Shown: positions 1,322 to 24,041, numbered from the stretch's first letter. The stretch is DNA of 53,752 nucleotides from Candidatus Parcubacteria bacterium (GCA_023132875.1 JAGLXN010000008.1:1-53752), one strand, 5' to 3'. Numbers and translations are program-made. Notes: generated by a model not told the origin, from the letters alone.

Positions 1322-1359
1322 AATTTTTCCTTTTTAATTATAAATTACTAATTATTTTC

Positions 1360-2451: not shown

Positions 2452-2455
2452 TTTT

Positions 2456-2797
2456 CTAAATTTTATAAATAACGCCCTTTTTTCCATCAACTCTAATTTT
2501 CATCCCATCTTTTAAAACTTTAGTCGCTTTTTCTGTTCCAACCACACAAGGAATCCCAAGCTCACGAGAAACGATCGAGGGATGCGAAGTCAGACCTCCT
2601 ATGTCAGTAACAATAGCGGCAGCTTTTGTTATTATCATTATCATTGAAGGATTTGTGATTCTAGTCACTAAAATATCACCTTCTTTGAATTCAGCAGAAG
2701 AGAAATCTAAATCTTTTACAACTTTTACCACTCCCTCAACTTCCCCCACACTTGCACCGGTCCCCTTTAGAATAATTTTAGATTCTTTTGTTTTCAT
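2456..2797 (-). CDS. Stand-alone PEP-utilising enzyme mobile (swivel phosphohistidine) domain
   Basis: GDILVTRITNPS and GGLTSHPSIVSRELGIPCVVG match the PEP-utiliser mobile domain with its phospho-acceptor His; only 113 aa. Confidence 0.9.
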   Translation of the reverse strand: MKTKESKIILKGTGASVGEVEGVVKVVKDLDFSSAEFKEGDILVTRITNPSMIMIITKAAAIVTDIGGLTSHPSIVSRELGIPCVVGTEKATKVLKDGMKIRVDGKKGVIYKI

Positions 2798-2901
2798 AAT
2801 TCTGCTTTTTTATATTTATAAATTCCTTCCCGCGCCCAAAAAACACAAGATGTTAAACACAAAGAGAAAATTAAACCGCAAAAAGATCATAGCGTATTGA
2901 T

Positions 2902-2956
2902 AATAAAAGAGTAGTGTCTTTTGTAACGGCCGTTGCAAAGGACACTACGCTTTATT
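2902..2956 (-). terminator. Long hairpin downstream of gpmI, probable intrinsic terminator
   Basis: Near-perfect inverted repeat GTAGTGTC..AACGG/CCGTT..GACACTAC centred on CGGCCG, with T-rich flanks. Confidence 0.55.
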
Positions 2957-3005
2957 ATTGTCATTTTGAACCCGATAAATAATAACAATATAACAATATA
3001 ACAAT

Positions 3006-8119: not shown

Positions 8120-9295
8120 TTATTCCAGCGCTTCCAATCCTGGCAATTTTTCTCCTGCCAAAAATTCAAGCATCGCGCCGCCGCCCGTACAAATATAATC
8201 CATTTTATTTAAATAACCAAGCTGGTCAAGCGCCATAATTGTATCTCCTCCTCCTATTATAGTATATCCGTCTGATTCTACAACAGCTTTTGCGATTTCC
8301 CTTGTGCCAAAAGAAAAATTTTTGTCTTCAAACATTCCCATCGGCCCGTTCCAGATTATAGTTTTAGAATCAGATATTATTTTTGAATACAAATTTGCGC
8401 TTTCCGTTCCAATGTCAAGTATTTTATTATCTCCGACTTTTCCTATTGCCTGCAAAGAAATTTTTTTGCTTTTAGAATTGTAAACAACCGCATCAACTGG
8501 AACATATAATTTATTGCTTCCAAGATTTATTTCTCTTACCTCCTTAATATCTATCCCATCCATTAAAGATTTTCCGGTATCAATCCCCTTTGCTTTTAAT
8601 ATCACATTTGCCACAACTCCTCCGACCAAAATATGATCAACTTTATTCATTAAATATTCGATTACGGGCACTTTTGTTTTTACCTTTGCTCCACCGATAA
8701 TAACGGTAACTGGCCCTTTTGAATTGTTTATCGCGTCAGATAATATTTTTACTTCTTTTCCCAAAAGTAATCCAGCGTAAGACGGCAAGAATTTTGTAAT
8801 AGCTGAAATAGAAGCGTGAGCGCGGTGCGAAACAGAAAAAGCATCGTTTACATAAATATCTGCGAGTTTAGATAGTTCTTTCGCAAATTTTTCGCCATTA
8901 TTTTTCTCTTCTTTATAAAATCTTAAATTTTCCAACAAAATAATTTCTCCTGCCCGCATTTTTTCAACAGCATCTTTTGCCTTATCCCCAACACAATCAT
9001 CAATAAATTTTATTTTACAATCCAACAGTTCTTCAAGCCGTTCTGCTACAGGTCTTAGACTATATTCTTGATTCTTAATTCTTAATTCTTGATTCCCTTC
9101 CGGTCTTCCCAAATGACTTATCAAAATAATCTTCGCTTCTTTTTCCAATAAATACTCTATCGTCGGCAACGCCGCTTTAATTCTCCAATCTTCTTTATTA
9201 TCCACAATTCCATCATCCCCAACTGGCACATTAAAATCAACCCTAATGAGAATTTTTTTATTTTTTAAATTTTTAATTTTTTTAATTAATTTCAT
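8120..9295 (-). CDS. pgk: Phosphoglycerate kinase
   Basis: IRVDFNVP, SHLGRP, LLENLRF, NDAFSVSHRAHAS, WNGPMG, GGGDT and TGGGAMLEFL motifs. Confidence 0.98.
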   Translation of the reverse strand: MKLIKKIKNLKNKKILIRVDFNVPVGDDGIVDNKEDWRIKAALPTIEYLLEKEAKIILISHLGRPEGNQELRIKNQEYSLRPVAERLEELLDCKIKFIDDCVGDKAKDAVEKMRAGEIILLENLRFYKEEKNNGEKFAKELSKLADIYVNDAFSVSHRAHASISAITKFLPSYAGLLLGKEVKILSDAINNSKGPVTVIIGGAKVKTKVPVIEYLMNKVDHILVGGVVANVILKAKGIDTGKSLMDGIDIKEVREINLGSNKLYVPVDAVVYNSKSKKISLQAIGKVGDNKILDIGTESANLYSKIISDSKTIIWNGPMGMFEDKNFSFGTREIAKAVVESDGYTIIGGGDTIMALDQLGYLNKMDYICTGGGAMLEFLAGEKLPGLEALE

Positions 9296-10499: not shown

Positions 10500-11084
10500 T
10501 TAATACTCCTCGCACTCAACCTCAAAATAACTCTGCGGATGATTGCAAGACGGGCATTTCTCTGGCGCTTCGTTAGCCTCAGAAACATAACCGCATTTTC
10601 GGCAAACCCAATAAACTTTCTTCTCTTTTTTAAATACTGTATTTTCTTCAACTTCTTTCAGTAATTTTCTAAATCTTTCCTCGTGATGTTTTTCCGCAAT
10701 CGCAATCGCTCTTATTTGCGCGGCGATTTTCGTAAACCCTTCTTCTTCCGCCATATCGGCAAACTCCGGATACATTTTCGTTTGCTCAAAATTTTCTCCG
10801 GCAATTGCCGCTTTCAAATTTTCCGCCGTATCGCCCAGCGTTGTCGGCACATCCGCTTCTATTTTTATTTCATCTAAATTTTCATCGCTCTTCTTTTTTA
10901 ATTCATTAATTAAACGAAAAAGCCACTTAGCATGCTCTCTCTCATTTTCCGCAGTAAGCAGAAAAATTTCCGAAATTTGCTCAAACCCTTCTTTCTGGGC
11001 AATTTTAGCGTAGAATGTATACCTATTCCTTACCTGACTCTCGCCAACAAAAGCTTTGGTGAGGTTTTGGATTGTGTTTTTCAT
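10500..11084 (-). CDS. rbr: Rubrerythrin
   Basis: AFVGES..RNRY, ENEREH and EKHHEER diiron motifs plus a C-terminal CRKCG/CPSC rubredoxin domain. Confidence 0.95.
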
Positions 11085-11210: not shown

Positions 11211-12212
11211 TTATTTCCCTCCCACAAACTCCGCCATTTCCACTAATCGGCAAGTATAACCATATTCATTATCGTACCAAGCGCAAATTTTGACCAGATT
11301 TTCATTGACCATTGTTAATGGCAAATCAACAATAGAGGAGAATCTATTGCCTTTGAAATCCATTGAAACCAATTCCTCTTCCGAGACCGCCAAAACATTT
11401 TTGAGATTATTTTCTGCCGCTTCCTTGAATAAATTATTTACTTCATTTGCGTTTGTAGATTTTTTCAAAGTAGCCACAAAGTCAACAATAGAAACAATTG
11501 GAGTTGGTATTCTCATTGCTATCCCATTTAACTTTCCTTCTAATTCGGGAAGAGTTTTGATAACCGCTTTCGCTGCTCCTGTAGTTGTTGGAATAATCGA
11601 CATTGCCGCCGCTCGCGCTCGGCGTAAATCGCCTTCGTAAGGCAGATCTAAAATTTTCTGGTCATTAGTGTAGCTATGCACTGTGGTCATAAATCCCCTT
11701 TCAATCCCCAAATTGTCATTTAATACTTTTACCACTGGCGCCAAACAATTTGTCGTGCAGGAAGCGTTGGAGATTATATTGTCTTTTTCTGGATTATATT
11801 TTTCTTCGTTGACGCCTAACACAAAAGTGTTAATCTCTTCGCTTTTCGCTGGAGCGGAGATGATCACTTTCTTTGCTCCCGCCTTCAAATGTTTTCCCGC
11901 GCCTTCACTATCCCTAAAAAATCCCGTGCATTCTAAAACTACATCCACCTCCAAATCTTTCCATGGCAAAAGCTCTGGATCTTTCTGCGCGAATACTTTA
12001 ATCTTTTTTCCGTCTATTATAATATGCTCTTCGTCATAACTCACATCTTTTTCATAAATCCCATAATTGGAATCGTACTTCAGAAGATGCGCCAAAGTTT
12101 TTGTGTCAGTTAAATCATTAACTGCAACAACTTCCAAATTAGAATTCTCCAACGCGATTTTCAACGCTGGCCGCCCAATCCGACCAAAACCATTAATTGC
12201 AATTTTTGTCAT
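11211..12212 (-). CDS. gap: Type I glyceraldehyde-3-phosphate dehydrogenase
   Basis: INGFGRIGR, NASCTTNCLAP, IIPTTTGAAKA and WYDNEYGY motifs. Confidence 0.98.
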   Translation of the reverse strand: MTKIAINGFGRIGRPALKIALENSNLEVVAVNDLTDTKTLAHLLKYDSNYGIYEKDVSYDEEHIIIDGKKIKVFAQKDPELLPWKDLEVDVVLECTGFFRDSEGAGKHLKAGAKKVIISAPAKSEEINTFVLGVNEEKYNPEKDNIISNASCTTNCLAPVVKVLNDNLGIERGFMTTVHSYTNDQKILDLPYEGDLRRARAAAMSIIPTTTGAAKAVIKTLPELEGKLNGIAMRIPTPIVSIVDFVATLKKSTNANEVNNLFKEAAENNLKNVLAVSEEELVSMDFKGNRFSSIVDLPLTMVNENLVKICAWYDNEYGYTCRLVEMAEFVGGK

Positions 12213-12232
12213 AGTTTTTTGTTAATTAATAA

Positions 12233-12442
12233 TTATTGTTTTATCTGCCTCCCAAAATCAGTTAAATTCCACAGCCTCTCATGAATATAATAAAATATTG
12301 TTTTCAAGGCATTTGCGACCAAGCCAGAGCCAAGAGCAATAGACCAATTGTCGGTCCAAAGATAAATCACAATCACCGTAGTCAAAGTCGCGATCATCCT
12401 CCAGGTAATTGTTTTAACTATTGTTCTCTTGTGTGTATCCAT
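12233..12442 (-). CDS. DUF2061-like small membrane protein
   Basis: RTIVKTITWRMIA ... KTIFYYIHERLW family pattern. Confidence 0.8.
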   Translation of the reverse strand: MDTHKRTIVKTITWRMIATLTTVIVIYLWTDNWSIALGSGLVANALKTIFYYIHERLWNLTDFGRQIKQ

Positions 12443-12977
12443 AATTTTTTATTTTAATTTTATTCCAAACCCCCCAAGCAATTACTCCCCCAATCACCGC
12501 TGTATAAAATTGCGGCCAGCTCATCATTTGGGCGATTTTTATTGCCAGCTCCTGCTTGATTAAAAGCCCGCTGATCATATTGACGCTTAAAAACAAAAAT
12601 AAGAATTTCAAAGCGGCTCCGACTATTATGCCTATCCAATATCCTTTTGTTTTATCTTTAAAATTATTATAGAACCAATCCACGCATAGAATTAAGATCA
12701 TATTGCCGATCATAATAAAAGGAACGACTGGCGCTAGAATTGCCGGAAGAAGTCCGCCAGATAGAGCCATTAAACTTGGAACTACCGCAATAGCAATCGC
12801 ATTACGAAATCCGAATTTAAGCAAAGTTAAAATTAAAATTGCATTAACGATTGGTCCCGTTATCCATTGGATATGGATCAAATATGGCAAAAATATTGCC
12901 ATACTCGCCAATCCCGCGAACTGCGTGATAGAACTGATATTAATTTGTTCAAATGTTTTTTCTTTTAGATATTGCAT
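12414..12977 (-). CDS. ECF transporter S-component-like membrane protein
   Basis: About six hydrophobic helices; QWITGPIVNAIL, PFIMIGN, KFLFL and SWPQFYTA fit the S-component pattern. Confidence 0.65.
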   Translation of the reverse strand: MQYLKEKTFEQINISSITQFAGLASMAIFLPYLIHIQWITGPIVNAILILTLLKFGFRNAIAIAVVPSLMALSGGLLPAILAPVVPFIMIGNMILILCVDWFYNNFKDKTKGYWIGIIVGAALKFLFLFLSVNMISGLLIKQELAIKIAQMMSWPQFYTAVIGGVIAWGVWNKIKIKNYGYTQENNS

Positions 12978-13008
12978 AGTTGTAAATTAAAAATAAAAAG
13001 TTATAATC

Positions 13009-13148
13009 TGTCATTGCGAAGAGACTGAATGAACGCAGTGAATGAAATGGCGACGAAGCAATCCCGTGATTAAATTCTTCGTGCATAGTTGCGGGATTGC
13101 TTTGTCGTTCCACTACGCTATCGCTCCATTCCATTTCTCGCAATGACA
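13009..13148. repeat. TGTCATTGCGA...TCGCAATGACA palindromic (REP/MITE-like) element
   Basis: Terminal inverted repeats with an internal GCAATCCCG/CGGGATTGC stem; second copy at 37890-38010. Confidence 0.9.
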
Positions 13149-13156
13149 TTCACAAG

Positions 13157-14926
13157 TTACTTCCTTTCTTTATATTCCGTATGCAAAACGCTATACTCTA
13201 ACTTCCCCTGTTTCTTCAGCCATTCCAAAACTTCTAAAACTCCTTTATTTCGATGCGCTTCTCTTATTTTTTTATTCTTGTCAATTTTATACAGCGCTGC
13301 TATTCTTTTCTTTCTTATTTCATCTGTTGTTGGAATTGGCTGGCCGCCGCCGCCAATGCACCCTCCGGGACACGCCATTACTTCAATATAATCGTAGCTA
13401 TTTAATTTTTCCAGCACTTGCTCAATATTGCCGATACCGTTGACAACAGCAACGCGCAATTTAGCACCAGATACAGAGACGGCTGTTTCTTTCACGTTAT
13501 CAAGTCCGCGGACAGATTTAAAGTCCAGATTTAATTTGCATATTTTATTTTCCTTTTTCTTATCGCCAGCGCAAGCAAAAAACCGCGCGCTTCGCAAAGC
13601 TGATTCCATTACTCCCCCGCTTCCGCCATAAATAGCTGCCGCGCCGCTATATTCTCCCAGTGGATGATCCGCTTGTTCTCCTTTTATTTTAGCGAAATTA
13701 ACACACCCTCTTTTTATCATCCACGCAAATTCTCTAGTGGTTAAAACATAATCAACGGGGAACATTCCTTTTATTTTCATTTCTTTTCTTGAGGACTCAA
13801 ATTTTTTGGCTGTGCAAGGCATAATAGAAACAACTACTATATTTTTTGGATCTACATTCATTTTCTCCGCCCAATATGTTTTGATAATTCCGCCCAAATG
13901 AATATGCGGTGATCTAGCAGTTGTTAAATTCGGAATTAATTCCGGATGGTAAAATTCAACATATTTCACCCAAGCGGGACAGCAAGAAGTTATCATCGGA
14001 AGTTTTGACTTTGCGCTTTTTTTGTCGGAATTATTCAATCTTCCTAATAATTCTTTCGCCTCAACCACTGTCGTCACATCAGCGCCGAAGTTAACATCAA
14101 AAATATGATCAAAACCGAGTTTTCTTAATCCCGCAACAACTTGGCCAGTCGCGATTTTACCGTAGGGCAGGCCGAATTCTTCTCCAATGCTGACCCTAAT
14201 TGAGGGAGCAAACTGCGCGATGACAATTTTACTTTTGTCATATAAAACCTTTTCAACTTCTTCCCAATGACTTTGCTCTTGCGCTGCACCAACAGGACAA
14301 TGAACAGCACACTGCCCGCAATAAATACAGTCAACCTTGCCATCCCCTCTGACAAGGGGGGATAGAGAAGAATTATTTTTTTTATTTTCCACAATTTCTT
14401 GATCAACTCCTTTTCCTTTTAATTTCAAATAATTTATATTCTGTAAAACAGAACAAGCATCAAGACAATTACGGCAGTCAATGCATTGAGATCCGTCAAT
14501 TTCAACAGCATTGGCAAATTTATATGTTTTTCTTTCACTTTTTCTATCTTTAAACCGCTTGATTTTAATATCATATTTTTCGGCCAATTTTAATAATCCG
14601 CAATTGACATTCCAAATGCAATCGGGACATTTTTCAATATGTTCGGCAAATATTAATTCAATATTCAAATTGCGGACTTTTTTCACCCGTTCTGTATTTG
14701 TATAAATTTCCATCCCGCCTTGAACTTTAGTTGAACAAGATGTCATCAACTTTTTCATTCCCTTAATTTCCACTACGCAAATCCGGCAATTCGCTTTCGG
14801 CGAAAAATCAGGATGATTACAAAGTCCCGGGATTTCTATTCCATTTCCTTTCGCCGCTTCCATAATTGTTTTATCTGAAGAGCAAGTTATTGCCCTATCG
14901 TCAATTTTAATCTTTACTTTCTTCAC
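13157..14926 (-). CDS. hydA: [FeFe]-hydrogenase group A catalytic subunit
   Basis: H-cluster motifs TSCCPAW, MPCTAKKFE and EVMACPGGCIGGGGQP; N-terminal 2Fe-2S domain, HxxxCxxCxxxxxC cluster and two CxxCxxCxxxC ferredoxin motifs. Confidence 0.96.
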   Translation of the reverse strand: MKKVKIKIDDRAITCSSDKTIMEAAKGNGIEIPGLCNHPDFSPKANCRICVVEIKGMKKLMTSCSTKVQGGMEIYTNTERVKKVRNLNIELIFAEHIEKCPDCIWNVNCGLLKLAEKYDIKIKRFKDRKSERKTYKFANAVEIDGSQCIDCRNCLDACSVLQNINYLKLKGKGVDQEIVENKKNNSSLSPLVRGDGKVDCIYCGQCAVHCPVGAAQEQSHWEEVEKVLYDKSKIVIAQFAPSIRVSIGEEFGLPYGKIATGQVVAGLRKLGFDHIFDVNFGADVTTVVEAKELLGRLNNSDKKSAKSKLPMITSCCPAWVKYVEFYHPELIPNLTTARSPHIHLGGIIKTYWAEKMNVDPKNIVVVSIMPCTAKKFESSRKEMKIKGMFPVDYVLTTREFAWMIKRGCVNFAKIKGEQADHPLGEYSGAAAIYGGSGGVMESALRSARFFACAGDKKKENKICKLNLDFKSVRGLDNVKETAVSVSGAKLRVAVVNGIGNIEQVLEKLNSYDYIEVMACPGGCIGGGGQPIPTTDEIRKKRIAALYKIDKNKKIREAHRNKGVLEVLEWLKKQGKLEYSVLHTEYKERK

Positions 14927-14962
14927 CTATTGTAGATTATAAAATTATTAATTTTAGTTTAC

Positions 14963-15030
14963 TTCGTGTGAATATTAGTTTATTTAGTGTTTATTATAGA
15001 AGCCACTAATAAAACCAATATTCGCACTAA
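14963..15030. repeat. TTCGTG..TATTAGT repeat element
   Basis: About 30 bp nearly identical to the start of 19712-19788. Confidence 0.7.
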
Positions 15031-15041
15031 AAAAACTAAGA

Positions 15042-16046
15042 TTAGAATTTCAATATATTCTTCCGATATGATCTAATTGGCACCGGCACGACGCTTCCTA
15101 ACCCGCAAAAAGACGCTTCGTCCAAATTATTCAACAATTCTTCCAGTAATTTCCAATTTATATCAGAAGAATTTATTATTTCATTTAAACGATAAACCCC
15201 TTCTCGGCACGGCGTGCATTGCCCGCAAGACTCATTAACAAAAAAACTAATCCATTTTCTTAATATTTCTTTCGGTTTATATTTTTTGGAATTATAAATG
15301 GTGATTGATCCTGCGCTACTAGCGGGTCTGTCTAATTGCTTGCTATTCAGCACTTCTCCACTGGCATCTCCGCCAACCTGAACGAAAAAATCAAATTTAG
15401 GATAATTATTTGTTTTTTTTAATATTTTTTCTATCGTTAAATTATCAGACAATTCATAAACACCGACAGATATACAATCTCCGCTAACAGTATAAAATCT
15501 GTTCTTTTGATATTCATTGCTAGCAGCTAAACTAACATTATAAAATGTTTCTACATTGTTTACTAAAGTCGGGCAATTCCATAAACCGTTAGTTGTTGGA
15601 AATGGAGGGCGTAATCGCGGTTCAACTCTTTTTCCTTCTATCGCGTTTAAAATTGACGTTTCCTCGCCGCCAATATATCCAGAACCATCTGGCTTGATGA
15701 AAAGTTCTATTTTATATTTTTTGTCGTTAGCTATAATTTTATTTAATTTCTTACCGAAATTTTTGTAATATTCGTGATTGATAAAAATGTATCCTTTTAT
15801 ACCACATTTATTTCTAGCAGACAAAAAATCTATCGCAATCTTTATCCCGTCTATCGCCCTCTCTCCAAAATTTTCCAAAATATATCCGTCTTTTTTAACG
15901 CCAGGCTCTCCTTCGGAAGCATTACAAACCACATATTTTTGATTTCCTGCCGCTTTTTTTACCATCTCCCATTTCATCGCGGTAGGAAAACACCCGCCAC
16001 CCCGTCCGACAAGATTCGCTTTTTTTATTTTGTTTATTATGTTCAT
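15042..16046 (-). CDS. Minimal NuoF/HydB-like NADH-binding flavoprotein subunit
   Basis: LVGRGGGCFPT, VCNASEGEPG, GYIGGEETS, NNVET and ESCGQCTPCREG..FCGLG; only 334 aa. Confidence 0.9.
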   Translation of the reverse strand: MNIINKIKKANLVGRGGGCFPTAMKWEMVKKAAGNQKYVVCNASEGEPGVKKDGYILENFGERAIDGIKIAIDFLSARNKCGIKGYIFINHEYYKNFGKKLNKIIANDKKYKIELFIKPDGSGYIGGEETSILNAIEGKRVEPRLRPPFPTTNGLWNCPTLVNNVETFYNVSLAASNEYQKNRFYTVSGDCISVGVYELSDNLTIEKILKKTNNYPKFDFFVQVGGDASGEVLNSKQLDRPASSAGSITIYNSKKYKPKEILRKWISFFVNESCGQCTPCREGVYRLNEIINSSDINWKLLEELLNNLDEASFCGLGSVVPVPIRSYRKNILKF

Positions 16047-16226: not shown

Positions 16227-17084
16227 TTATTTCCCACATCTAAATAACTCTATCTTCTCTTCAACCTTTTTTTGAACTGAATCACGCGCTATAGACAAAA
16301 CCTTTCTCGGATCAGTTACCATCTGTCCGCTAACACAAAAATCGCTTATCGCCGACATAAAAGCAACTCTGATTTCCGTATCAATATTTACATTGACTAT
16401 TCCATAATTAGATATAGCTTTTTTTATGTCTTCTGACGGCGTTCCGGACCCGCCATGAAGAATAAAAGGTGTTGAAACTTTTTCTCTTAATTTTTTGAAT
16501 AAATCTAAATCTAAATTAGGATTCCCCTCTGGTTTATACATCCCATGTATATTTCCTGCGATTACTGCAACAGTGTCAACTTTGGTTTTTTTAATAAATT
16601 CTTCTAGTTCGTCTGGATCAGTTTTTTCCATTTGTTTAAGAGTTGTTCCTATTTCCGTACTATTTTTCATTCTCGGAATTTTTCCAAGCTCAGCTTGAAC
16701 AATAACTCCCTTTTTATGCGCGTAATCAACAATATTTTTTGTAATTTCTATATTTTTTTCCAACTCATACATAGAAGCATCTATCATAATAGATTTGAAT
16801 CCCTCATCTACGCATTTTTTGATAAATTTTGGATCTTTTCCGTGATCAAGATGTAAAACTAGATCCGCTTTTGACTCTGCTATAATTCCTTTTACTAAAT
16901 TCATCAATGGTAAAAACCCGGCGTACTCCGCAGCTGTTTCTGTTACACCGATCATCGCGGGCATATTCTTTGCCTCTGCTGCTCTCGCAATCCCTTGCGC
17001 CACTTCTAAATTGGAAGTGTCAAAAGTTCCAAAAGCATATTTTCCTTTTTGCGCTTCTTTAATTATTTCTTTAATTAGTGACAT
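16227..17084 (-). CDS. fba: Class II fructose-bisphosphate aldolase
   Basis: LHLDHG, SIMIDAS, VQAELG, GNIHG, LHGGSG and NVNIDT motifs. Start at MSLIK (17084) is preferred over the track start at 17138. Confidence 0.93.
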   Translation of the reverse strand: MSLIKEIIKEAQKGKYAFGTFDTSNLEVAQGIARAAEAKNMPAMIGVTETAAEYAGFLPLMNLVKGIIAESKADLVLHLDHGKDPKFIKKCVDEGFKSIMIDASMYELEKNIEITKNIVDYAHKKGVIVQAELGKIPRMKNSTEIGTTLKQMEKTDPDELEEFIKKTKVDTVAVIAGNIHGMYKPEGNPNLDLDLFKKLREKVSTPFILHGGSGTPSEDIKKAISNYGIVNVNIDTEIRVAFMSAISDFCVSGQMVTDPRKVLSIARDSVQKKVEEKIELFRCGK

Positions 17085-17132
17085 GGATTTTATTGTTAAA
17101 TTGTTAAATTGTTGTACTGCTATATTAAAATT

Positions 17133-17160
17133 TGTCATTCTGAAGCAAGTTCAGAATGAC
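17133..17160. repeat. Solo GTCATTCTGAA..TTCAGAATGAC hairpin
   Basis: Perfect inverted repeat of the same family as 32325, 33987 and 52569. Confidence 0.8.
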
Positions 17161-17177
17161 GGAAAAAAATTATTTTT

Positions 17178-17945
17178 TTACACAAACAAGTTCACAATCC
17201 TTACAAACTCGCTTCCATTCAGTGACGCGCCTCCTATTAACAATCCATCCATTCCCGTCTTATCAATAAAATCAAACGCGTTTTTGCTATTAACACTACC
17301 ACCGTATAAAATCGGAATTTTCTCCGCTGTTTCACGGCCATAAAGATTGGAAATAGTTTTTTTAATCAAAAGACAGGCACTCATTATTTCATTTGCAGAC
17401 GGTGTTTCTCCGGTGCCGATCGCCCATATTGGCTCATAAGCAATTTGTAAGTTACAATTTAAAACTTGTAATTCAACATTTTTCAAAGCTTCTTCTAATT
17501 GGGTGATGATTACTTCACTTGTCCGATCTTGTTGTTTTTCTTTTATTGTTTCACCGATACATAAAATAGAAATAAGATTATTTTTTATCACCGATTGGAC
17601 TTTCAGATTAACCATTTCATCCGTTTCGTTTAAATATTTTCTTCTTTCAGAATGTCCTATTATAATATGATTCACCTTTAAATTTTTTACCATCATCGCT
17701 GAAATTTCTCCTGTATAAGCTCCCTTATCTTCCCAAAAGATATTTTGAACGCCCAATTCAAAATCTGAATTAACTTTAATTTTTGAAAGATAAACGGTAG
17801 GCGGACAAATCACAACACTAATACTATCAGATTTTTTAATTCCTTTTTTAATTGTCTTAATCAGATTATCCGCCTCATCAAAACTAACCGGATTCATTTT
17901 CCAGTTAGCAACAATATACTTCAACTTACTATTATCAGTCAACAT
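17178..17945 (-). CDS. tpiA: Triosephosphate isomerase
   Basis: ANWKMN, GAYTGEIS, IGHSERR, AYEPIWAIGTG, LYGGSV and LIGGASL motifs. Confidence 0.98.
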   Translation of the reverse strand: MLTDNSKLKYIVANWKMNPVSFDEADNLIKTIKKGIKKSDSISVVICPPTVYLSKIKVNSDFELGVQNIFWEDKGAYTGEISAMMVKNLKVNHIIIGHSERRKYLNETDEMVNLKVQSVIKNNLISILCIGETIKEKQQDRTSEVIITQLEEALKNVELQVLNCNLQIAYEPIWAIGTGETPSANEIMSACLLIKKTISNLYGRETAEKIPILYGGSVNSKNAFDFIDKTGMDGLLIGGASLNGSEFVRIVNLFV

Positions 17946-18037: not shown

Positions 18038-18952
18038 TTACTTTTTTTTCAAATACTTATAAATACTCGTCGCGGCAATCGCTCCCTCTGAAACAGCGGT
18101 TACAATTTGGCGAAGTCCATTGGAACCATTTGTGATATCCCCCGCCGCGTAAATACCTTCTATGTTAGTAGAGCCGCTTGCTTCTATAATAATACAACCG
18201 CTTTTGTCAATTTTAACTCCCAGTCCTTTTGCTAAATCCACAAAAGGAATAGAGCCAACCTCGATAAACAATCCGTCTAATTTTATTTTATTGCCACCGT
18301 TATATTTATTATTAATTTCAATCAATTCAACTTTTTTATCGCCTGACACTTTTGTTATATTTGTATTGTAAATAATTTCTATTTTAGAGTTTTTTTCTAA
18401 TCTTTCTAAAATGACCGGCTCGCACCTCATCGACTGTTTTCTGTAAATTACATATACTTTTTTCGCGCATTCGGAAAGCATTTCTGCCGCCATTGCCGCT
18501 GAATCACTGCCACCGGCAACTGCTACTGTTTTGTCTTTAAAAAACGCGCCATCGCAAACAGCGCAGTAGCTTACGCCTTTTCCTAAAAACTTTTTCTCGC
18601 CCGAAATATTAAGTTTTCTGTGTTTTGTCCCAAGAGTAATCAAAATTGCTTTTGATTTATAGACTTTACTCAAATTAGTTTTTATGATAAATATGCTATC
18701 ATCTTTGCTAATTTCTACAACTTCTTCCTGTATAATTTCTAATCCTAAACTTTTGGCGTGATCATAAAATTTCATAATTAAATCAGAACCTTTTATTGAT
18801 TTTTCTCCCGGCCAGTTTTCAATTTTATGCGCTTTTGAAAGTGATCCATCAAAAACATTACCAACTACTATGTGGTTAATTTTATACCTTGAAGCATAAA
18901 TTGACGCCGATAATCCAGCAGGACCAGCGCCTAAAACTATAAGATCATACAT
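18038..18952 (-). CDS. trxB: Thioredoxin reductase
   Basis: GAGPAG, GVSYCAVCDG (CxxC) and GIYAAGD motifs. Confidence 0.9.
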   Translation of the reverse strand: MYDLIVLGAGPAGLSASIYASRYKINHIVVGNVFDGSLSKAHKIENWPGEKSIKGSDLIMKFYDHAKSLGLEIIQEEVVEISKDDSIFIIKTNLSKVYKSKAILITLGTKHRKLNISGEKKFLGKGVSYCAVCDGAFFKDKTVAVAGGSDSAAMAAEMLSECAKKVYVIYRKQSMRCEPVILERLEKNSKIEIIYNTNITKVSGDKKVELIEINNKYNGGNKIKLDGLFIEVGSIPFVDLAKGLGVKIDKSGCIIIEASGSTNIEGIYAAGDITNGSNGLRQIVTAVSEGAIAATSIYKYLKKK

Positions 18953-19046: not shown

Positions 19047-19238
19047 TTATTTTTCTATTTTTATCGCCCCAACCGGACAACTATTTATTGCTATTTCACA
19101 ATCGCATTTTTTACTCTCGTCTTTATTTACAACATTAACTTTTCCATCATCTTGCAGTTCAAACGCGTCAGGACACAAATTAACACAAGCTCCGCACCCA
19201 ATACAGAGTTCTTGATCAACTTTAATTTTTTTTGCCAT
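19047..19238 (-). CDS. fdx: Monocluster ferredoxin
   Basis: CIGCGACVNLCP ... CPVGAI in 63 aa. Confidence 0.92.
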   Translation of the reverse strand: MAKKIKVDQELCIGCGACVNLCPDAFELQDDGKVNVVNKDESKKCDCEIAINSCPVGAIKIEK

Positions 19239-19246
19239 AATTTTTC

Positions 19247-19573
19247 TTAGTTATTTTTTATCAAGTTATTTATTTTCTCTATTAAAATTTCTTTTGGCTG
19301 AAGTCCTATCATTTCTTCAACAACTTCTCCTTTTTTAAACACTTTCAGCGTTGGGATGCTTAAAATTTCATATTCTCCTGCAATATTTGGATTTTCATCC
19401 ACATTAAGTTTTCTTATCTTTATTTTTCCATCAAATTCTTTGGAAAGTTCCTCAATAACAGGACTCATCATTTGGCACGGACCGCACCATGGAGCCCAAA
19501 AATCAACCAAAACAAGTATTTCGGACTTTCTTACTTCATCCTTAAAATTTTGGTCAGTTAGTTCAATATCCAT
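19247..19573 (-). CDS. trxA: Thioredoxin
   Basis: VDFWAPWCGPC and SIPTL; start at MDIEL (19573) preferred. Confidence 0.96.
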   Translation of the reverse strand: MDIELTDQNFKDEVRKSEILVLVDFWAPWCGPCQMMSPVIEELSKEFDGKIKIRKLNVDENPNIAGEYEILSIPTLKVFKKGEVVEEMIGLQPKEILIEKINNLIKNN

Positions 19574-19711
19574 AGGATATATACTCCTTTCTTTTTTGTT
19601 AAATCTTGGCATTTTCTTTTACTCTGCAGTTAAAAAAATAACCAGAATTACACTTTATTTCTTATTAATGTTATACTTACCTTGGACTACGAAATTCTAT
19701 TTTTAGTTATC

Positions 19712-22208: not shown

Positions 22209-24041
22209 CTAAAACTTCACAACTTCGCCTTCTTTAATTTCTAAATTTTTGCCTTTGGACAAGTCTTTATAATTAGACCGATTCATTTTCTCTACACTAA
22301 CATTTTTTCGAATAGGATCACCTTTTATTATTGCATTAGACGACTTTTCGGAAACTTCCTTATTTTTTTGTATTTGAAAATTATTAGAAATAGAGAAAGA
22401 TTTTTCTTTTCTTTCATCAACATCTCGCCCGACAAAACTATTTTTGGAATCAGTTGCTTTAATTTCCTTTTTTTTTATTTGGTAAATTTTCTTTTCTTCT
22501 TCTTTTTTTTCAAAATCAACTTTATCAACTTTATTATTTTTTACTGATTCTGCCGCTTGCTTTCTAACCTCTGCGAGACAATTCTTGCAATAAGTTGATC
22601 TTCCCGGATCCGGCTTAAATGGAACTTTTATCTTTTCTCCACACATCTCGCATACCGCGTCCCACATTTCTTTTTCTTCCATTTCATTTATATTATTTTT
22701 TGATCCTATTTCTTTAGACTCTTTACTTTTTTTGTTATTATTATTTTCTATTTTTTTATCTTCATTATCCATTCCTGACCACCTTGAAATTTTTTCTTCT
22801 ACAACTTCCCTTTTATTTGCATATCTTTCTCTTGAGACTTTTATTATTTTTTCTACATTGCTTTGTTCTGTCACTCCTAACGGTGGCAAAGTCGTTGCAC
22901 TAAAAGCATCTCCAGTAACTCCATCTATCATTAGCTTTAAATATATGTCGTACTTTGTAAGATTAACTAAATCGTTCATCATAAACACAGGCTCAAATTC
23001 TTTTTCCAAAAACTCAGCATCCGCGGCTCCTACTCTAAATGTAACAATAGTCCCAACATTTCCAAATATAGCATCGCGAACTTCTTCTTCAAGCTGTCCA
23101 ATATATTGATGAGCAACGATCAAATTCAATTTATATTTTCTTGCTTCCGAAAGAATACCTGCAAATGATTCTGTGGCAAAATTTTGAAATTCGTCAACAT
23201 AAAGATAAAAATCTTTTCGTTCTTCTTCTGGAATATCAGATCTACCCATGGCTGCCAGCTGAACTTTAGTAATAAGCATTGCCCCTAAAAGAGCGCTGTA
23301 ATCTTCGCCGATTTTTCCTTTAGCCAAATTTATGATAAGTATTTTTTTATTATCCATTATTTCCCTCATATCAATAGTAGAATGAGTTTGAGAAATAATA
23401 TTTCTAACAAGAGAACTGGAGAGAAACTGTCCAACCTTATTTTGAATTGGAGAAATGGCATCAACTGTAAACTGGCTTGAGTATTTTGTAAATTCATTAA
23501 GCCAGAAAGCTTTTACAACAGGATCAGAAACCTTATTTACCACCTTTTTTCTATAATCTTTATCAATGAACATTCTCGGCACTCCCAAAAGAGTGCTTCC
23601 GGGATATTCCAGAAGAGCTAAAATCACATTTCTAAGCAAATATTCTAATCGCGGTCCCCATGAATCAGCCCATATTTTTTTAAATACTCCAATCAATCCA
23701 GAAGCAACCAAATGCCTATATTTTGGATTAACATGCTCCATAACATTAAAAGCAATCGGATAGTCTGCGTCTGCCGGATTAAAATAGATAACATCATTGA
23801 TCCTTGATGCCGGAATAAAATTTAATATTTTTTCAGCCAAATCTCCATGAGGGTCAACAACAGCAACTCCGTTTCCAGCTCTGATATCAGAAATTATCAT
23901 AGTTTCCAAAAGATTTGTCTTTCCCATTCCAGTTTTTCCGATTACATAAACATGCCTTCTACGATCATCTTTCTTTACGCCAAAAACATACTCCTTTTCC
24001 CTGAAGTTAGTTTTCGCAAAATATGTAATATTTTCTGTCAT
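22209..24041 (-). CDS. VirD4/TraD/HerA-like P-loop ATPase with a C-terminal CxxC-x17-CxxC zinc ribbon
   Basis: Walker A GKTGMGKT, VVDPHGDL, Walker B LYVDEFQNF, SEARKY and AHQY; CEMC..VPFKP..YCKNC domain. Confidence 0.85.
   Translation of the reverse strand: MTENITYFAKTNFREKEYVFGVKKDDRRRHVYVIGKTGMGKTNLLETMIISDIRAGNGVAVVDPHGDLAEKILNFIPASRINDVIYFNPADADYPIAFNVMEHVNPKYRHLVASGLIGVFKKIWADSWGPRLEYLLRNVILALLEYPGSTLLGVPRMFIDKDYRKKVVNKVSDPVVKAFWLNEFTKYSSQFTVDAISPIQNKVGQFLSSSLVRNIISQTHSTIDMREIMDNKKILIINLAKGKIGEDYSALLGAMLITKVQLAAMGRSDIPEEERKDFYLYVDEFQNFATESFAGILSEARKYKLNLIVAHQYIGQLEEEVRDAIFGNVGTIVTFRVGAADAEFLEKEFEPVFMMNDLVNLTKYDIYLKLMIDGVTGDAFSATTLPPLGVTEQSNVEKIIKVSRERYANKREVVEEKISRWSGMDNEDKKIENNNNKKSKESKEIGSKNNINEMEEKEMWDAVCEMCGEKIKVPFKPDPGRSTYCKNCLAEVRKQAAESVKNNKVDKVDFEKKEEEKKIYQIKKKEIKATDSKNSFVGRDVDERKEKSFSISNNFQIQKNKEVSEKSSNAIIKGDPIRKNVSVEKMNRSNYKDLSKGKNLEIKEGEVVKF

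What the first reader, a model, noticed from the sequence alone, without database searches (positions are those of the whole stretch)
13157..16046. Minimal two-subunit NADH-linked [FeFe]-hydrogenase in a CPR-like genome
Seen: full HydA with all three H-cluster motifs, preceded by a 334-aa NuoF-like gene that has only the FMN/NADH, SLBB-like and one 4Fe-4S region. It has no N- or C-terminal extra FeS domains, and there is no HydC/NuoE gene. The flavin-site strings are EGEPGVKKD and GYIGGEE. Known: bifurcating HydB typically has EGDPGAFMD, AFVCGEE and extra C-terminal clusters, while NuoF and non-bifurcating enzymes have E..K and Y. Inference: a non-bifurcating, unusually stripped-down NADH-to-H2 enzyme.
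Basis: partly seen in the sequence, partly recalled or inferred. Interest (0 to 1): 0.68.

Follow-up and report, generated by a model that had tools for sequence, protein, structure and literature searches.

The report
NuoE-less two-subunit NADH [FeFe]-hydrogenase
A tiny cold-seep bacterium encodes a stripped-down hydrogen-making enzyme: a complete iron hydrogenase paired with a shortened NADH-reading subunit, lacking the third subunit found in every studied relative, and placed among glycolysis genes so that it can probably dispose of surplus NADH as hydrogen gas.

Summary
On the minus strand, a 334-aa NuoF-like flavoprotein (15042-16046) lies 115 nt upstream of a complete 589-aa M3-type [FeFe]-hydrogenase HydA (13157-14926). 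The NuoF-like protein has only the FMN/NADH domain, a ubiquitin-like middle domain and one N3-type [4Fe-4S] site. No NuoE/HydC gene or domain exists in the window or in 86 related loci. This is a large conserved family: at least 548 species-representative genomes, nearly all Patescibacteria. Synteny is GAPDH, NuoF-like, HydA, then a RibU-like membrane protein. Two natural NuoF-like::HydA fusion proteins lack NuoE, which shows that the two proteins make one enzyme. The pair keeps exactly the core wire of HydABC (FMN, B2, HydA clusters, H-cluster). It lacks every peripheral cofactor implicated in bifurcation, and it carries the non-bifurcating K and Y residues. The best reading is a non-bifurcating NAD(H)-linked hydrogenase that reoxidises glycolytic NADH, and it is a new variant, because all four characterized non-bifurcating enzymes retain NuoE. 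Activity was not tested. HydG, HydE and HydF are present in some family members but were not found for this genome. Interest 0.6.

The parts
15042..16046 (-). Short NuoF-like flavoprotein subunit (334 aa, a 'minimal HydB'). It has the FMN/NADH Rossmann domain, a ubiquitin-like middle domain and a four-helix N3-type [4Fe-4S] domain. It lacks the NuoF N-terminal ~50 residues, any NuoE-like domain, the N-terminal [2Fe-2S] and the C-terminal 2x[4Fe-4S].
   Evidence: Pfam Complex1_51K 2.1e-32 and NADH_4Fe-4S 3.8e-16 only. TIGR01959 nuoF_fam scores 199.9, far below its cutoff of 558.65. PDB alignments begin at NuoF residue ~53. AF2 pLDDT 86, TMq 0.85-0.89 to HydB/NuoF/HoxF/FdsB.
15993..16007 (-). 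GRGGG glycine-rich FMN-binding loop (residues 14-18)
   Evidence: Aligned to GRGGAGFPTG of NuoF/HydB. G14 and G17 are invariant in the 36-sequence family alignment. Coordinates checked.
15888..15914 (-). EGEPGVKKD NADH-site motif (residues 45-53). In T. maritima HydB numbering, position 232 is V and position 234 is K.
   Evidence: 77 of the 120 closest homologues have EGEPGVKKD, and nearly all keep the K. Under Losey's criteria K at 234 is the non-bifurcating state.
15660..15680 (-). GYIGGEE flavin-site motif (residues 123-129). Tyr sits at the F/Y diagnostic position; Gly replaces the usual Cys of CGEE.
   Evidence: [SA]GYIGGEE occurs in 108 of 120 homologues. The Tyr aligns with F308 of T. 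maritima HydB.
15105..15227 (-). The single [4Fe-4S] site (N3 / B2 equivalent): C274, C277, C280 and C314
   Evidence: The Cys are invariant or nearly invariant across the family.
14927..15041 (-). 115-nt AT-rich spacer between the two genes. It has no terminator-like hairpin and one promoter-like match (14972..14944).
13157..14926 (-). HydA, a complete M3-type group A [FeFe]-hydrogenase catalytic subunit (589 aa). It contains an N-terminal [2Fe-2S] (C36/47/50/64), a His-ligated [4Fe-4S] (H96, C100/103/109), two ferredoxin-type [4Fe-4S] (C148-C158, C200-C210), the H-domain and a fused small-subunit-like tail.
   Evidence: The nearest solved relatives are HydA subunits of multimeric HydABC: T. 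kivui 8a6t_A at 473 bits and A. woodii 7q4v_A at 443 bits, against CpI at 402 bits.
13970..13990 (-). H-cluster motif L1, TSCCPAW (C315 proton relay, C316 cluster ligand)
   Evidence: C316 is conserved in 78 of 78 family HydAs and C315 in 76 of 78.
13796..13822 (-). H-cluster motif L2, MPCTAKKFE
13337..13384 (-). H-cluster motif L3, EVMACPGGCIGGGGQP
12414..12977 (-). Conserved downstream neighbour: a 187-aa polytopic membrane protein with an ECF S-component fold, closest to RibU. It probably corresponds to the 'hyd6TM' protein noted next to group A [FeFe] hydrogenases. Possible flavin uptake (inference).
   Evidence: It lies downstream of HydA in 52 of 86 loci. Pfam ECF_trnsprt is weak, 21.5 bits against a cutoff of 30.7. 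AF2 pLDDT 79. Top Foldseek hits are T. maritima RibU 5kc0/5kbw (TMq 0.64-0.66), then S. aureus RibU and ThiT, all with E about 1e-2. Source names include 'riboflavin transporter', 'ECF transporter S component' and 'iron hydrogenase'. hyd6TM is described in PMC11216029.
11211..12212 (-). GAPDH, the likely physiological source of the NADH. It is the most conserved neighbour of the hydrogenase pair.
   Evidence: Pfam Gp_dh_N and Gp_dh_C. GAPDH is within reach in 75 of 86 loci, usually directly upstream of the NuoF-like gene.
16227..17945 (-). Class II fructose-bisphosphate aldolase and triose-phosphate isomerase, directly upstream and co-directional. Together with PGK (8120-9295), enolase (4889-6157) and iPGM (3006-4562) they form the glycolytic gene string that contains the hydrogenase.

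Best explanation
The two genes encode a heteromeric, NuoE-less, NAD(H)-linked, non-bifurcating [FeFe]-hydrogenase.

Proposed mechanism: NADH, chiefly from the adjacent GAPDH step of glycolysis, transfers a hydride to FMN in the 334-aa NuoF-like subunit. Electrons leave one at a time through its single N3/B2-type [4Fe-4S] cluster (C274/277/280/314) and enter the N-terminal NuoG-like cluster chain of HydA. By homology with HydABC, that chain is the [2Fe-2S] followed by the two ferredoxin-type [4Fe-4S] clusters. The electrons then reach the H-cluster, which reduces protons to H2. The reaction is reversible. In the NADH-to-H2 direction it is favourable only at very low H2 pressure (below about 60 Pa according to Losey et al.). 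That condition suits a fermentative Patescibacteria cell living beside H2 consumers in cold-seep sediment.

Shown here: the gene pair, the domain and ligand inventory, family-wide conservation, synteny, natural fusions, and the absence of NuoE/HydC in all DNA examined.

Inferred: complex formation in this organism, the electron path, NADH specificity, lack of bifurcation, and the physiological direction.
For: (1) Complete cofactor sites. HydA has all H-cluster motifs and 16 accessory-cluster ligands. The NuoF-like protein has the GRGGG loop, EGEPGVKKD, GYIGGEE and the four N3 Cys.

(2) Strong constraint. All 16 accessory ligands are invariant in 78 of 78 family HydAs, and the H-cluster Cys are present in every complete sequence. 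The FMN, NADH and N3 residues are invariant in the NuoF-like alignment.

(3) Functional coupling. HydA lies downstream of the NuoF-like gene in 79 of 86 loci. Two natural fusion proteins join NuoF-like to HydA: P0132 with a linker of at most 2 aa, and P0137 with about 9 aa, the latter seen in three sources on a 101 kb contig.

(4) No NuoE/HydC. No Pfam PF01257 hit in the scanned window ORFs. No CX4C..CX3C ORF in 5865 frames. tblastn with a verified HydC gives best E = 0.13, while HydB and HydA from the same operon hit at 1e-49 and 1e-117. None of the 120 closest homologues has a NuoE or ferredoxin-type Cys motif. The NuoF N-terminus is missing.

(5) What remains equals the 'core electron transfer pathway' of T. 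maritima HydABC: FMN-B2-A1-A2-A3-H-cluster, with HydB bound directly to HydA. The absent parts (C1, B1, B3/B4, bridge domains) are those assigned to bifurcation (PMC9499530).

(6) Non-bifurcating signature. K at 234 and Y at the F/Y site. The nearest non-short relatives are EGEPGTFKD/GAYICGEE-type NuoE-NuoF fusions.

(7) Precedent. NADH-dependent, ferredoxin-independent [FeFe]-hydrogenases are biochemically established in S. wolfei, S. aciditrophicus and C. churrovis.

(8) Metabolic logic. The pair sits inside a GAPDH/FBA/TIM/PGK/enolase/iPGM string, GAPDH is adjacent in 75 of 86 loci, and the habitat is anoxic cold seep.
Against: - There is no biochemical data for any member of this family.
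- In every characterized NuoF-containing NADH-dependent hydrogenase a NuoE module is present, so the stability or function of a NuoE-less NuoF is unproven.
- Position 232 is Val, neither the T/S of non-bifurcating nor the A/E of bifurcating enzymes. The GGDASG segment resembles the bifurcation-associated GGPSG.
- By sequence score the best solved matches are bifurcating HydB subunits, although only marginally (162 against 153 bits for NuoF). HydA is also closest to the HydA of bifurcating complexes.
- Small ferredoxin genes lie nearby: 19047-19238 in the window, and directly after HydA in 7 loci.
- The maturases HydG, HydE and HydF were not found in the window. No HydF with at least about 45% identity to a Patescibacteria HydF maps to the 831 kb contig.
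- Only 53.7 kb of the roughly 831 kb genome could be inspected for hydC.
Confidence: 0.62

Rival explanations
1. It is an electron-bifurcating or confurcating (group A3-like) hydrogenase that uses NADH plus ferredoxin. The missing parts would be supplied in trans (a hydC elsewhere, or a free ferredoxin docking on HydA), or bifurcation would work through a different geometry.
For: HydA is most similar to the HydA of bifurcating complexes (8a6t_A at 473 bits, 7q4v_A at 443 bits). The top sequence and fold hits of the NuoF-like protein are bifurcating HydB subunits, though by small margins. GGDASG resembles GGPSG. Ferredoxin genes lie nearby, in the window at 19047-19238 and directly after HydA in 7 loci. 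Metagenomic practice usually files HydA plus a NuoF-like neighbour as A3 (PMC5520028).
Against: All cofactors of the peripheral branch assigned to bifurcation are absent: HydC C1, HydB B1, B3/B4, and the HydA C-terminal bridge domain. No HydC is found in the window or in 86 loci. The fusion proteins contain no NuoE. The NuoF N-terminus is lost. The K234 and Y states are non-bifurcating. The nearest longer relatives carry the non-bifurcating signature.
Confidence: 0.1
2. The two proteins do not form one enzyme. HydA would be an ordinary ferredoxin-dependent fermentative hydrogenase (A1-like, as in CpI). The NuoF-like protein would be a separate NADH:acceptor oxidoreductase, for example NADH:ferredoxin, that is merely co-transcribed.
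For: M3-type HydA enzymes such as CpI work alone with ferredoxin (PMC9499530). Ferredoxins are encoded nearby. In 27 loci a gene for a membrane protein of about 250 aa separates the two genes.
Against: Natural head-to-tail fusions with linkers of 0-9 aa exist. Synteny is near-universal. HydA is closer to complex-forming HydAs than to CpI. In HydABC the NuoF homologue binds HydA directly. C. churrovis NuoEF could not reduce ferredoxin with NADH.
Confidence: 0.08
3. The apparatus is the same but the physiological direction is H2 uptake. The enzyme would oxidise environmental H2 to make NADH for a cell with few other sources of reductant.
For: Non-bifurcating NADH-dependent enzymes are reversible and reduce NAD+ with H2 readily. 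Seep and subsurface habitats can be H2-rich (for a subsurface site; for the habitat).
Against: The tight linkage to GAPDH and the glycolytic gene string points to an NADH-producing pathway that needs a sink. No respiratory chain or CO2-fixation genes were seen in the window to consume NADH. The window is only about 6% of the genome.
Confidence: 0.1
4. In this genome HydA is not matured by the canonical route because HydE, HydF and HydG are absent. It would then be either inactive as a hydrogenase or matured by an unknown or partner-dependent pathway.
For: No HydG/E/F in the window or in 84 of 86 loci. The 120 best homologues of a Patescibacteria HydF reach down to 44-47% identity, yet none lies on the window's 831,018-bp contig or on the 301, 158, 144 or 102 kb contigs that carry the NuoF-like gene. 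Most archaeal [FeFe]-hydrogenase genomes also lack maturases (PMC11216029).
Against: HydG-HydE-HydF are embedded in the same operon in L010 and L011 and occur at separate loci in other genomes, so the family can use the canonical route. The H-cluster ligands are under strict conservation.
Confidence: 0.1

Closest known systems
[quoted passage not shown] 2020, PMC7311640)
   Same: Two polypeptides: an M3-type HydA and a NuoF-like flavoprotein. The non-bifurcating residues K/S/A at 234 and Tyr at the flavin site are shared, and the extra HydB clusters are absent. It makes H2 from NADH without ferredoxin.
   Different: Its HydB is about 585 aa and is a fusion of a NuoE-like [2Fe-2S] domain (residues 15-152) with the NuoF-like part. 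The window protein is 334 aa, with no NuoE domain and no NuoF N-terminus. It has Val rather than Thr/Ser at position 232 and Gly rather than Cys in the CGEE motif.
Syntrophomonas wolfei Hyd1ABC and Caecomyces churrovis Hyd + NuoEF (non-bifurcating NADH-dependent complexes; PMC5626996, PMC13556243)
   Same: HydA plus a NuoF-type diaphorase, ferredoxin-independent NADH:H2 chemistry, and a role in reoxidising fermentative NADH at low H2.
   Different: Both have a separate NuoE/HydC subunit that co-purifies with NuoF. No such gene is found here or in 86 related loci.
Electron-bifurcating HydABC (T. maritima 7P5H, A. woodii 7Q4V, T. kivui 8A6T)
   Same: These are the best structural and sequence templates. 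HydA is about 50% identical to T. kivui HydA1 over its full length. The NuoF-like fold matches HydB at TMq 0.85-0.87. The core pathway FMN-B2-HydA clusters-H-cluster is shared.
   Different: The window enzyme lacks HydC (C1), the HydB N-terminal [2Fe-2S] (B1), the HydB C-terminal 2x[4Fe-4S] (B3/B4) and the HydA C-terminal domain. It does not have the signature EGDPGAFM / GAFVCGEE / GGPSG.
Complex I NuoF/Nqo1 (51 kDa subunit)
   Same: The FMN/NADH Rossmann domain, ubiquitin-like domain and N3 four-helix bundle are shared. So are the K and Y residues.
   Different: The window protein lacks the first ~50 residues and has no NuoE partner. It scores 199.9 against the TIGR01959 cutoff of 558.65. It is partnered with HydA rather than NuoG, and no other nuo genes were seen in the window.
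DPANN archaeal group A [FeFe]-hydrogenase loci with 'hyd6TM' (Greening et al. 2024, PMC11216029)
   Same: Ultrasmall-genome fermenters. A small polytopic membrane protein is recurrently encoded next to group A HydA. Canonical maturases are frequently absent.
   Different: The archaeal A3 loci described there have HydB plus HydC, and their A1 enzymes are monomeric minimal HydA. The NuoE-less NuoF-HydA pair is not described in the passages I could read.

Membership tests
[FeFe]-hydrogenase, group A catalytic subunit (HydA) | H-cluster binding motifs L1 (TSCCPxW), L2 (MPCxxKxxE) and L3 (ExMxCxxGCxxGGGQP) | tested here: met
   All three are present at 13970-13990, 13796-13822 and 13337-13384. Pfam Fe_hyd_lg_C 2.9e-88.
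[FeFe]-hydrogenase, group A catalytic subunit (HydA) | Score above the curated cutoff of the group A model | tested here: met
   TIGR02512 scores 447.8 bits against a cutoff of 405.95. The narrower model NF040763, 'NADH-dependent, group A6', scores 658 bits, below its cutoff of 765.
[FeFe]-hydrogenase, group A catalytic subunit (HydA) | Dedicated maturases HydE, HydF and HydG in the same genome | tested here: inconclusive
   Absent from the window. Present in-operon in relatives L010 and L011 and at separate loci in L089 and L090. No HydF hit maps to the 831 kb contig.
Electron-bifurcating HydABC (group A3) | HydC / NuoE-like thioredoxin-fold [2Fe-2S] subunit | tested here: not met
   None in the window or in 86 loci: Pfam, motif scan, and tblastn with best E = 0.13. 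The rest of the genome was not testable.
Electron-bifurcating HydABC (group A3) | HydB with an N-terminal [2Fe-2S] and a C-terminal 2x[4Fe-4S] ferredoxin domain | tested here: not met
   The protein is 334 aa with only nine Cys, four of them in the N3 motif. There is no Fer2 or Fer4 Pfam hit.
Electron-bifurcating HydABC (group A3) | Losey signature: A/E at 232, M at 234, F at the flavin site, GGPSG | tested here: not met
   The window protein has V, K, Y and GGDASG.
Non-bifurcating NADH-dependent [FeFe]-hydrogenase (S. wolfei / S. aciditrophicus type) | NuoF-like beta subunit with FMN and NADH motifs and one N3-type [4Fe-4S], without extra clusters | tested here: met
Non-bifurcating NADH-dependent [FeFe]-hydrogenase (S. 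wolfei / S. aciditrophicus type) | Losey signature: T/S at 232; K/S/A at 234; Y at the flavin site; no GGPSG | tested here: inconclusive
   K at 234 and Y are met. GGPSG is absent in the strict sense (GGDASG). Position 232 is V, which is neither class.
Non-bifurcating NADH-dependent [FeFe]-hydrogenase (S. wolfei / S. aciditrophicus type) | NuoE-like gamma subunit or fused NuoE-like domain | tested here: not met
   For this reason it is filed as a variant that works like this family, not as a plain member.
Non-bifurcating NADH-dependent [FeFe]-hydrogenase (S. wolfei / S. aciditrophicus type) | Ferredoxin-independent NADH:H2 oxidoreductase activity | not testable with these tools
   Requires an enzyme assay.
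Complex I NuoF (TIGR01959) | Full-length match above the curated cutoff, with the N-terminal domain and a NuoE partner | tested here: not met
   199.9 bits against a cutoff of 558.65. The match covers model positions 37-400 only. No NuoE was found.
ECF-transporter S component (RibU-like), for the neighbour at 12414-12977 | PF12822 match above cutoff; six-helix S-component fold | tested here: inconclusive
   PF12822 scores 21.5 bits, below the cutoff of 30.7. There is no NCBIfam hit. The AF2 model's best matches are RibU 5kc0/5kbw at TMq 0.64-0.66 with E about 1e-2. The substrate is unknown.

The most novel reading that the evidence does not exclude
Patescibacteria run a previously uncharacterized minimal NADH:H2 module, FMN plus one [4Fe-4S] docked straight onto HydA. 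This would show that NuoE/N1a is dispensable for a working NuoF-type diaphorase. In most of these genomes, possibly including this one, the H-cluster would be built without HydE/F/G, by an alternative or partner-dependent route. The always-adjacent RibU-like 'hyd6TM' membrane protein would act as a dedicated cofactor or precursor importer.
Probability: 0.2. Interest if true: 0.85.

Novelty: new variant of a known kind. Interest (0 to 1): 0.6.

Why it matters
Four reasons it would matter if true.

(1) It would define the smallest natural NADH-to-H2 wire: one flavin, one cluster, then HydA. It would also be a natural experiment on a long-standing question, namely what the NuoE/N1a module of complex-I-type diaphorases is for. 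Here evolution has deleted that module together with the NuoF N-terminus, and kept the result in hundreds of species and even as single-chain fusions.

(2) It changes how CPR hydrogen metabolism should be annotated. Survey pipelines that see HydA next to a NuoF-like gene tend to call it 'bifurcating group A3'. For this very widespread family that call is probably wrong. This matters for models of H2 flux and syntrophy in sediments and aquifers.

(3) The fixed GAPDH-hydrogenase linkage gives a simple, testable redox-balance scheme for obligate fermenters with tiny genomes.

(4) A compact two-gene or one-gene NADH-driven hydrogenase is an attractive part for engineering.

Tried and rejected
- Looked for a third subunit in the gaps between the NuoF-like gene and HydA. 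27 loci hold a polytopic membrane protein of about 250 aa (weak UPF0259 match) and 3 hold DUF4186. Neither is redox-active or present in the window, so they were rejected as core subunits.
- Looked for NuoE by Pfam, by Cys-motif regex and by tblastn with a verified HydC. All were negative.
- Tried to settle the maturase status of the window's genome by matching contig lengths between homologue lists. The result was suggestive of absence on the 831 kb contig but not conclusive. The genome beyond the 53.7 kb window could not be fetched.
- Considered HydGEF adjacency as a proxy for presence. Rejected, because L089 and L090 carry the maturase cluster far from any hydrogenase gene.
- NCBIfam and a PDB sequence search gave nothing for the ECF-like neighbour. 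Only fold comparison gave a lead.
- Literature searches for a NuoE-less NuoF-HydA enzyme in CPR/Patescibacteria found no description. One search failed on syntax. Subscription-only papers are outside this library, for example Wrighton et al. 2012, which I recall as discussing CPR hydrogenases.
- No RNA runs were listed for the locus, so in-situ expression could not be tested.
- A complex model could not be evaluated. The structure tool returns no coordinates and accepts only window or the search for homologous proteins sequences, so inter-cluster distances were not computed.
- The neighbour-joining tree has no support values and is used only to show that the short family is a separate clade.

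Full report
**What is in the sequence**

Two co-directional minus-strand ORFs occupy the stated interval. The first, at 15042-16046, is 334 aa with an ATG start. The second, at 13157-14926, is 589 aa with a GTG start. They are separated by a 115-nt AT-rich spacer. The spacer has no terminator-like hairpin and one promoter-like match.

The downstream ORF is a complete M3-type [FeFe]-hydrogenase catalytic subunit.
- Pfam finds Fer2_4, NADH-G_4Fe-4S_3, two Fer4-type sites, Fe_hyd_lg_C (2.9e-88) and Fe_hyd_SSU.
- NCBIfam TIGR02512 ([FeFe] hydrogenase group A) is passed, 447.8 against a cutoff of 405.95.
- The narrower model 'NADH-dependent [FeFe] hydrogenase, group A6' is the top hit but falls below its cutoff, 658 against 765.
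- The three H-cluster motifs and all accessory ligands are present: C36/47/50/64; H96, C100/103/109; C148-158; C200-210.

The upstream ORF matches only Complex1_51K and NADH_4Fe-4S.
- It has nine cysteines. Four form the N3 pattern (C274, C277, C280, C314) and there is no other cluster motif.
- Alignments to solved NuoF and HydB chains start at about NuoF residue 53, or HydB residue 185. The first ~50 residues of NuoF are therefore missing, along with any N- or C-terminal extension.
- An AlphaFold2 model built on a 36-sequence family alignment is confident (pLDDT 86, pTM 0.86).
- The model superposes over its whole length on HydB, NfnB, FdsB, HoxF and NuoF (TMq 0.85-0.89). The ubiquitin-like middle domain is therefore kept as a fold, although Pfam SLBB does not match.

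**It is a family, not an oddity**

- The 120 closest homologues are all 309-408 aa and carry the same two Pfam domains. Where they are named, they come from Patescibacteria, including Andersenbacteria, Falkowbacteria and Parcubacteria.
Nearly all are labelled Patescibacteria.
- An exhaustive search of 50%-identity representatives separates a short-form family from ordinary HydB/NuoF. The short forms comprise about 27 clusters of 320-365 aa scoring at least 234 bits. Ordinary HydB/NuoF score at most about 221 bits and match only after N-terminal extensions of 100-350 aa.
- In a neighbour-joining tree of 120 representatives, the short forms make their own clade, and the midpoint root separates it from all others. 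The tree has no support values.
- The organism of the window occurs in cold-seep metagenomes from several studies.

**Gene context**

The window carries a one-strand glycolytic gene string:
- TIM (17178-17945) and class II aldolase (16227-17138);
- the NuoF-like gene and HydA;
- an ECF-S-like membrane protein (12414-12977) and DUF2061;
- GAPDH (11211-12212) and rubrerythrin;
- PGK, enolase and iPGM.

Across 86 related loci, HydA follows the NuoF-like gene in 79. Most of the exceptions end at a contig edge. GAPDH is adjacent in 75 loci, and the ECF-S-like protein follows HydA in 52.

In 27 loci a polytopic membrane protein of about 250 aa is inserted between the two genes, and in 3 loci a DUF4186 protein. 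The window has neither.

**The two proteins make one enzyme**

Two representatives, P0132 (885 aa) and P0137 (918 aa), are head-to-tail fusions of the short NuoF-like module to a full HydA. Their linkers are at most 2 aa and about 9 aa, and neither contains a NuoE domain. P0137 was recovered from three sources on a 101 kb contig.

A third protein, P0135, fuses the same module to a [NiFe]-hydrogenase small-subunit domain. The short module therefore behaves as a portable minimal diaphorase.

**No NuoE/HydC**

- The window ORFs I scanned with Pfam have no PF01257 hit. Three ORFs of at least 100 aa beyond 49 kb were not scanned by Pfam, but the two six-frame searches below cover the whole window.
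- No stop-to-stop frame in the window or in 86 loci carries the CX4C...CX3C signature (5865 frames examined). The exceptions are small ferredoxins and chance matches.
- tblastn with a Pfam-verified HydC from Cetobacterium somerae gives a best E of 0.13. HydB and HydA from the same operon hit at 1e-49 and 1e-117.
- None of the 120 closest homologues has a NuoE-type or ferredoxin-type Cys motif.

The remaining roughly 94% of the genome could not be inspected.

**Bifurcating or not**

Losey et al. (PMC7311640) give sequence criteria in T. maritima HydB numbering.
- Bifurcating beta subunits have A/E at 232, M at 234, Phe at the flavin site, GGPSG at 427-431, and extra clusters.
- Non-bifurcating ones have T/S at 232, K/S/A at 234, Tyr, and no GGPSG.
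- The paper prints position 367 for the Phe. By alignment the residue is F308 in GAFVCGEE.

The window protein has V232, K234, Tyr and GGDASG. These states are family-wide: EGEPGVKKD in 77 of 120, [SA]GYIGGEE in 108 of 120, and Q[VI]GGDASG in 75 of 120. Two of the residue criteria are therefore clearly non-bifurcating. One (V232) fits neither class. The GGPSG site is similar but not identical.

The closest non-short relatives are NuoE-NuoF fusions with EGEPGTFKD/GAYICGEE, the non-bifurcating type.

The cryo-EM analysis of T. maritima HydABC (PMC9499530) adds a structural argument.
- It distinguishes a core pathway, FMN-B2-A1-A2-A3-H-cluster, with HydB bound directly to HydA.
- It separates this from a peripheral set of cofactors (HydC C1, HydB B1, B3/B4 and the bridge domains), which it assigns to bifurcation.
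- It notes that the complex-I equivalent of C1 (N1a) is not on the main catalytic path.

The window enzyme keeps every element of the core pathway and none of the peripheral set.

**Constraint**

- In 78 family HydAs, all 16 accessory ligands are invariant.
- The H-cluster cysteines are present in every complete sequence.
- The proton-relay Cys is kept in 76 of 78. The exceptions are Ser in L025 and Asp in L080.

This argues for a working hydrogenase.

**Maturation**

The window has no HydE, HydF or HydG.

L010 and L011 carry the order GAPDH, NuoF-like, HydA, HydG, HydE, HydF, ECF-like.
- HydG scores 557 on TIGR03955, cutoff 312.
- HydE scores 319 on TIGR03956, cutoff 255.
- HydF scores 311 on TIGR03918, cutoff 326.

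Other genomes carry HydG-HydE-HydF at separate loci. The family can therefore use the canonical route.

However, HydF relatives are much scarcer than the NuoF-like protein.
- Only about 33 clusters are at least 60% identical to the L010 HydF.
- By rank 120 identity has fallen to 44-47%, and the labels include non-CPR phyla.
- None of the listed hits lies on the window's 831,018-bp contig, nor on the 301, 158, 144 or 102 kb contigs that carry the NuoF-like gene.

This evidence is indirect and unresolved. Greening et al. (PMC11216029) report the same pattern for archaea and propose an alternative maturation route.

**The membrane neighbour**

- The 187-aa protein downstream of HydA has 830 relatives. 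Where sources name them, the names include 'ECF transporter S component', 'riboflavin transporter' and even 'iron hydrogenase'.
- It matches PF12822 only weakly and has no NCBIfam or PDB sequence match.
- Its AF2 model (pLDDT 79) is closest to the riboflavin S-components: TmRibU at TMq 0.64-0.66 and SaRibU at 0.58. ThiT comes next. All E-values are about 1e-2 or weaker.
- It probably corresponds to the 'hyd6TM' protein noted beside group A hydrogenases, although I did not compare sequences.

Flavin supply for the FMN subunit is a reasonable but unproven role.

**Comparison with what is known**

- S. wolfei Hyd1ABC has it as a separate subunit.
- S. aciditrophicus HydAB has it fused to HydB.
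- The Nyctotherus enzyme has all parts fused.
- C. churrovis Hyd works with NuoEF.

The window enzyme works like these by inference but fails the NuoE criterion. It fails three of the defining features of bifurcating HydABC and the NuoF equivalog cutoff.

I found no description of this architecture in the searchable literature. That library omits most subscription journals.

**Verdict**

This is a real, conserved and very widespread NuoE-less two-subunit (occasionally one-chain) NAD(H)-linked [FeFe]-hydrogenase of Patescibacteria. It is most likely non-bifurcating and coupled to glycolytic NADH. I rate it a new variant of a known kind.
- Confidence in the mechanism: 0.62.
- Interest: 0.6.

The open points are a hydC elsewhere in the genome, the maturase status of this genome, and all of the biochemistry.

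Noticed in passing
L010:12910-16712 and L011:3572-7296: In two Patescibacteria loci the maturase genes hydG, hydE and hydF sit inside the operon, between hydA and the ECF-like gene. In the other 84 loci and in the window they are absent from the neighbourhood. HydF homologues appear much rarer than the NuoF-like/HydA pair, and none maps to the window's 831 kb contig.
   Followed up: partly
window 12414-12977 (-): A 187-aa six/seven-helix membrane protein is conserved downstream of HydA in 52 of 86 loci. Its fold is closest to the riboflavin S-component RibU. Some NCBI records name it 'iron hydrogenase'. It likely corresponds to the 'hyd6TM' of Greening et al. 2024.
   Followed up: partly
P0135 (702 aa; representative library): The same short NuoF-like module is fused to an Oxidored_q6 ([NiFe]-hydrogenase small subunit / NuoB-like) domain through a Ser/Pro/Thr-rich linker. 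This suggests the minimal diaphorase has also been recruited to a [NiFe] enzyme.
   Followed up: no
family alignment A1, C-terminus (e.g. P0090, P0092, P0095): 39 of the 120 closest NuoF-like homologues carry a tail of about 20-25 aa ending '...KKxICECFK' (a CxC motif). The window protein and its nearest relatives lack it. Its function is unknown; a metal site or a contact with HydA is possible.
   Followed up: partly
L025 (HydA 2651-4360) and L080 (HydA 11802-13367): Two divergent family HydAs have natural substitutions of the proton-relay cysteine (window C315, CpI C299): Ser in L025 (TASCP) and Asp in L080 (TSDCP). L080 also has EVM changed to QIK in motif L3.
   Followed up: no
L026:13183-13413 and the equivalent positions in L028, L032, L034, L035, L044, L052: A ferredoxin-like ORF of about 75 aa (Fer4 hits, CxxCxC...CxxCxxCxxxC pattern) lies directly after HydA in 7 loci. 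The window instead has a 63-aa single-cluster-type ferredoxin at 19047-19238, next to thioredoxin and thioredoxin reductase.
   Followed up: partly
27 loci, e.g. L020:1949-2707: A polytopic membrane protein of about 250 aa (weak UPF0259 match) is inserted between the NuoF-like gene and hydA in about a third of the loci. Three other loci have DUF4186 at that position.
   Followed up: partly
window 10500-11084, 18038-18952, 19247-19612 (-): Rubrerythrin, thioredoxin reductase and thioredoxin flank the hydrogenase/glycolysis cluster. This is a plausible oxidative-stress kit beside an O2-sensitive enzyme.
   Followed up: no
window 29429-30628 (-) and 22209-24041 (-): A Shedu SduA_C-domain protein (2e-36), a candidate anti-phage defence gene, and a TrwB/VirD4-like coupling ATPase with a treble-clef zinc finger. 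Several neighbouring large ORFs (24101-25393, 26937-27812, 27835-29403) have no Pfam match.
   Followed up: no
window 170-2797 (-): A 113-aa ORF consisting only of a PEP-utilizers mobile domain (2456-2797) overlaps or abuts two ORFs of about 380 aa with no Pfam hits (1360-2490, 170-1321). This may be a split or highly divergent PEP synthase / PPDK at the end of the glycolytic string.
   Followed up: no
L068 and L066: Two loci with the same GAPDH-NuoF-like-HydA arrangement carry record titles of Woesearchaeota (archaeon) and Planctomycetota. Many others are titled 'uncultured Gammaproteobacteria' (binchicken MAGs). These could reflect mis-binning or placeholder labels, or lateral transfer to DPANN.
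   Followed up: no
L087 (Cetobacterium somerae plasmid p2, 4051-7876): A plasmid-borne hydC-hydB-hydA operon. Its HydB (531 aa) has the bifurcating signature (EGDPGAFMD, GAFVCGEE, GGPSGG) and an N-terminal extension but no C-terminal 2x[4Fe-4S] domain. NCBI names its HydA 'NADH-dependent [FeFe] hydrogenase, group A6'.
   Followed up: no
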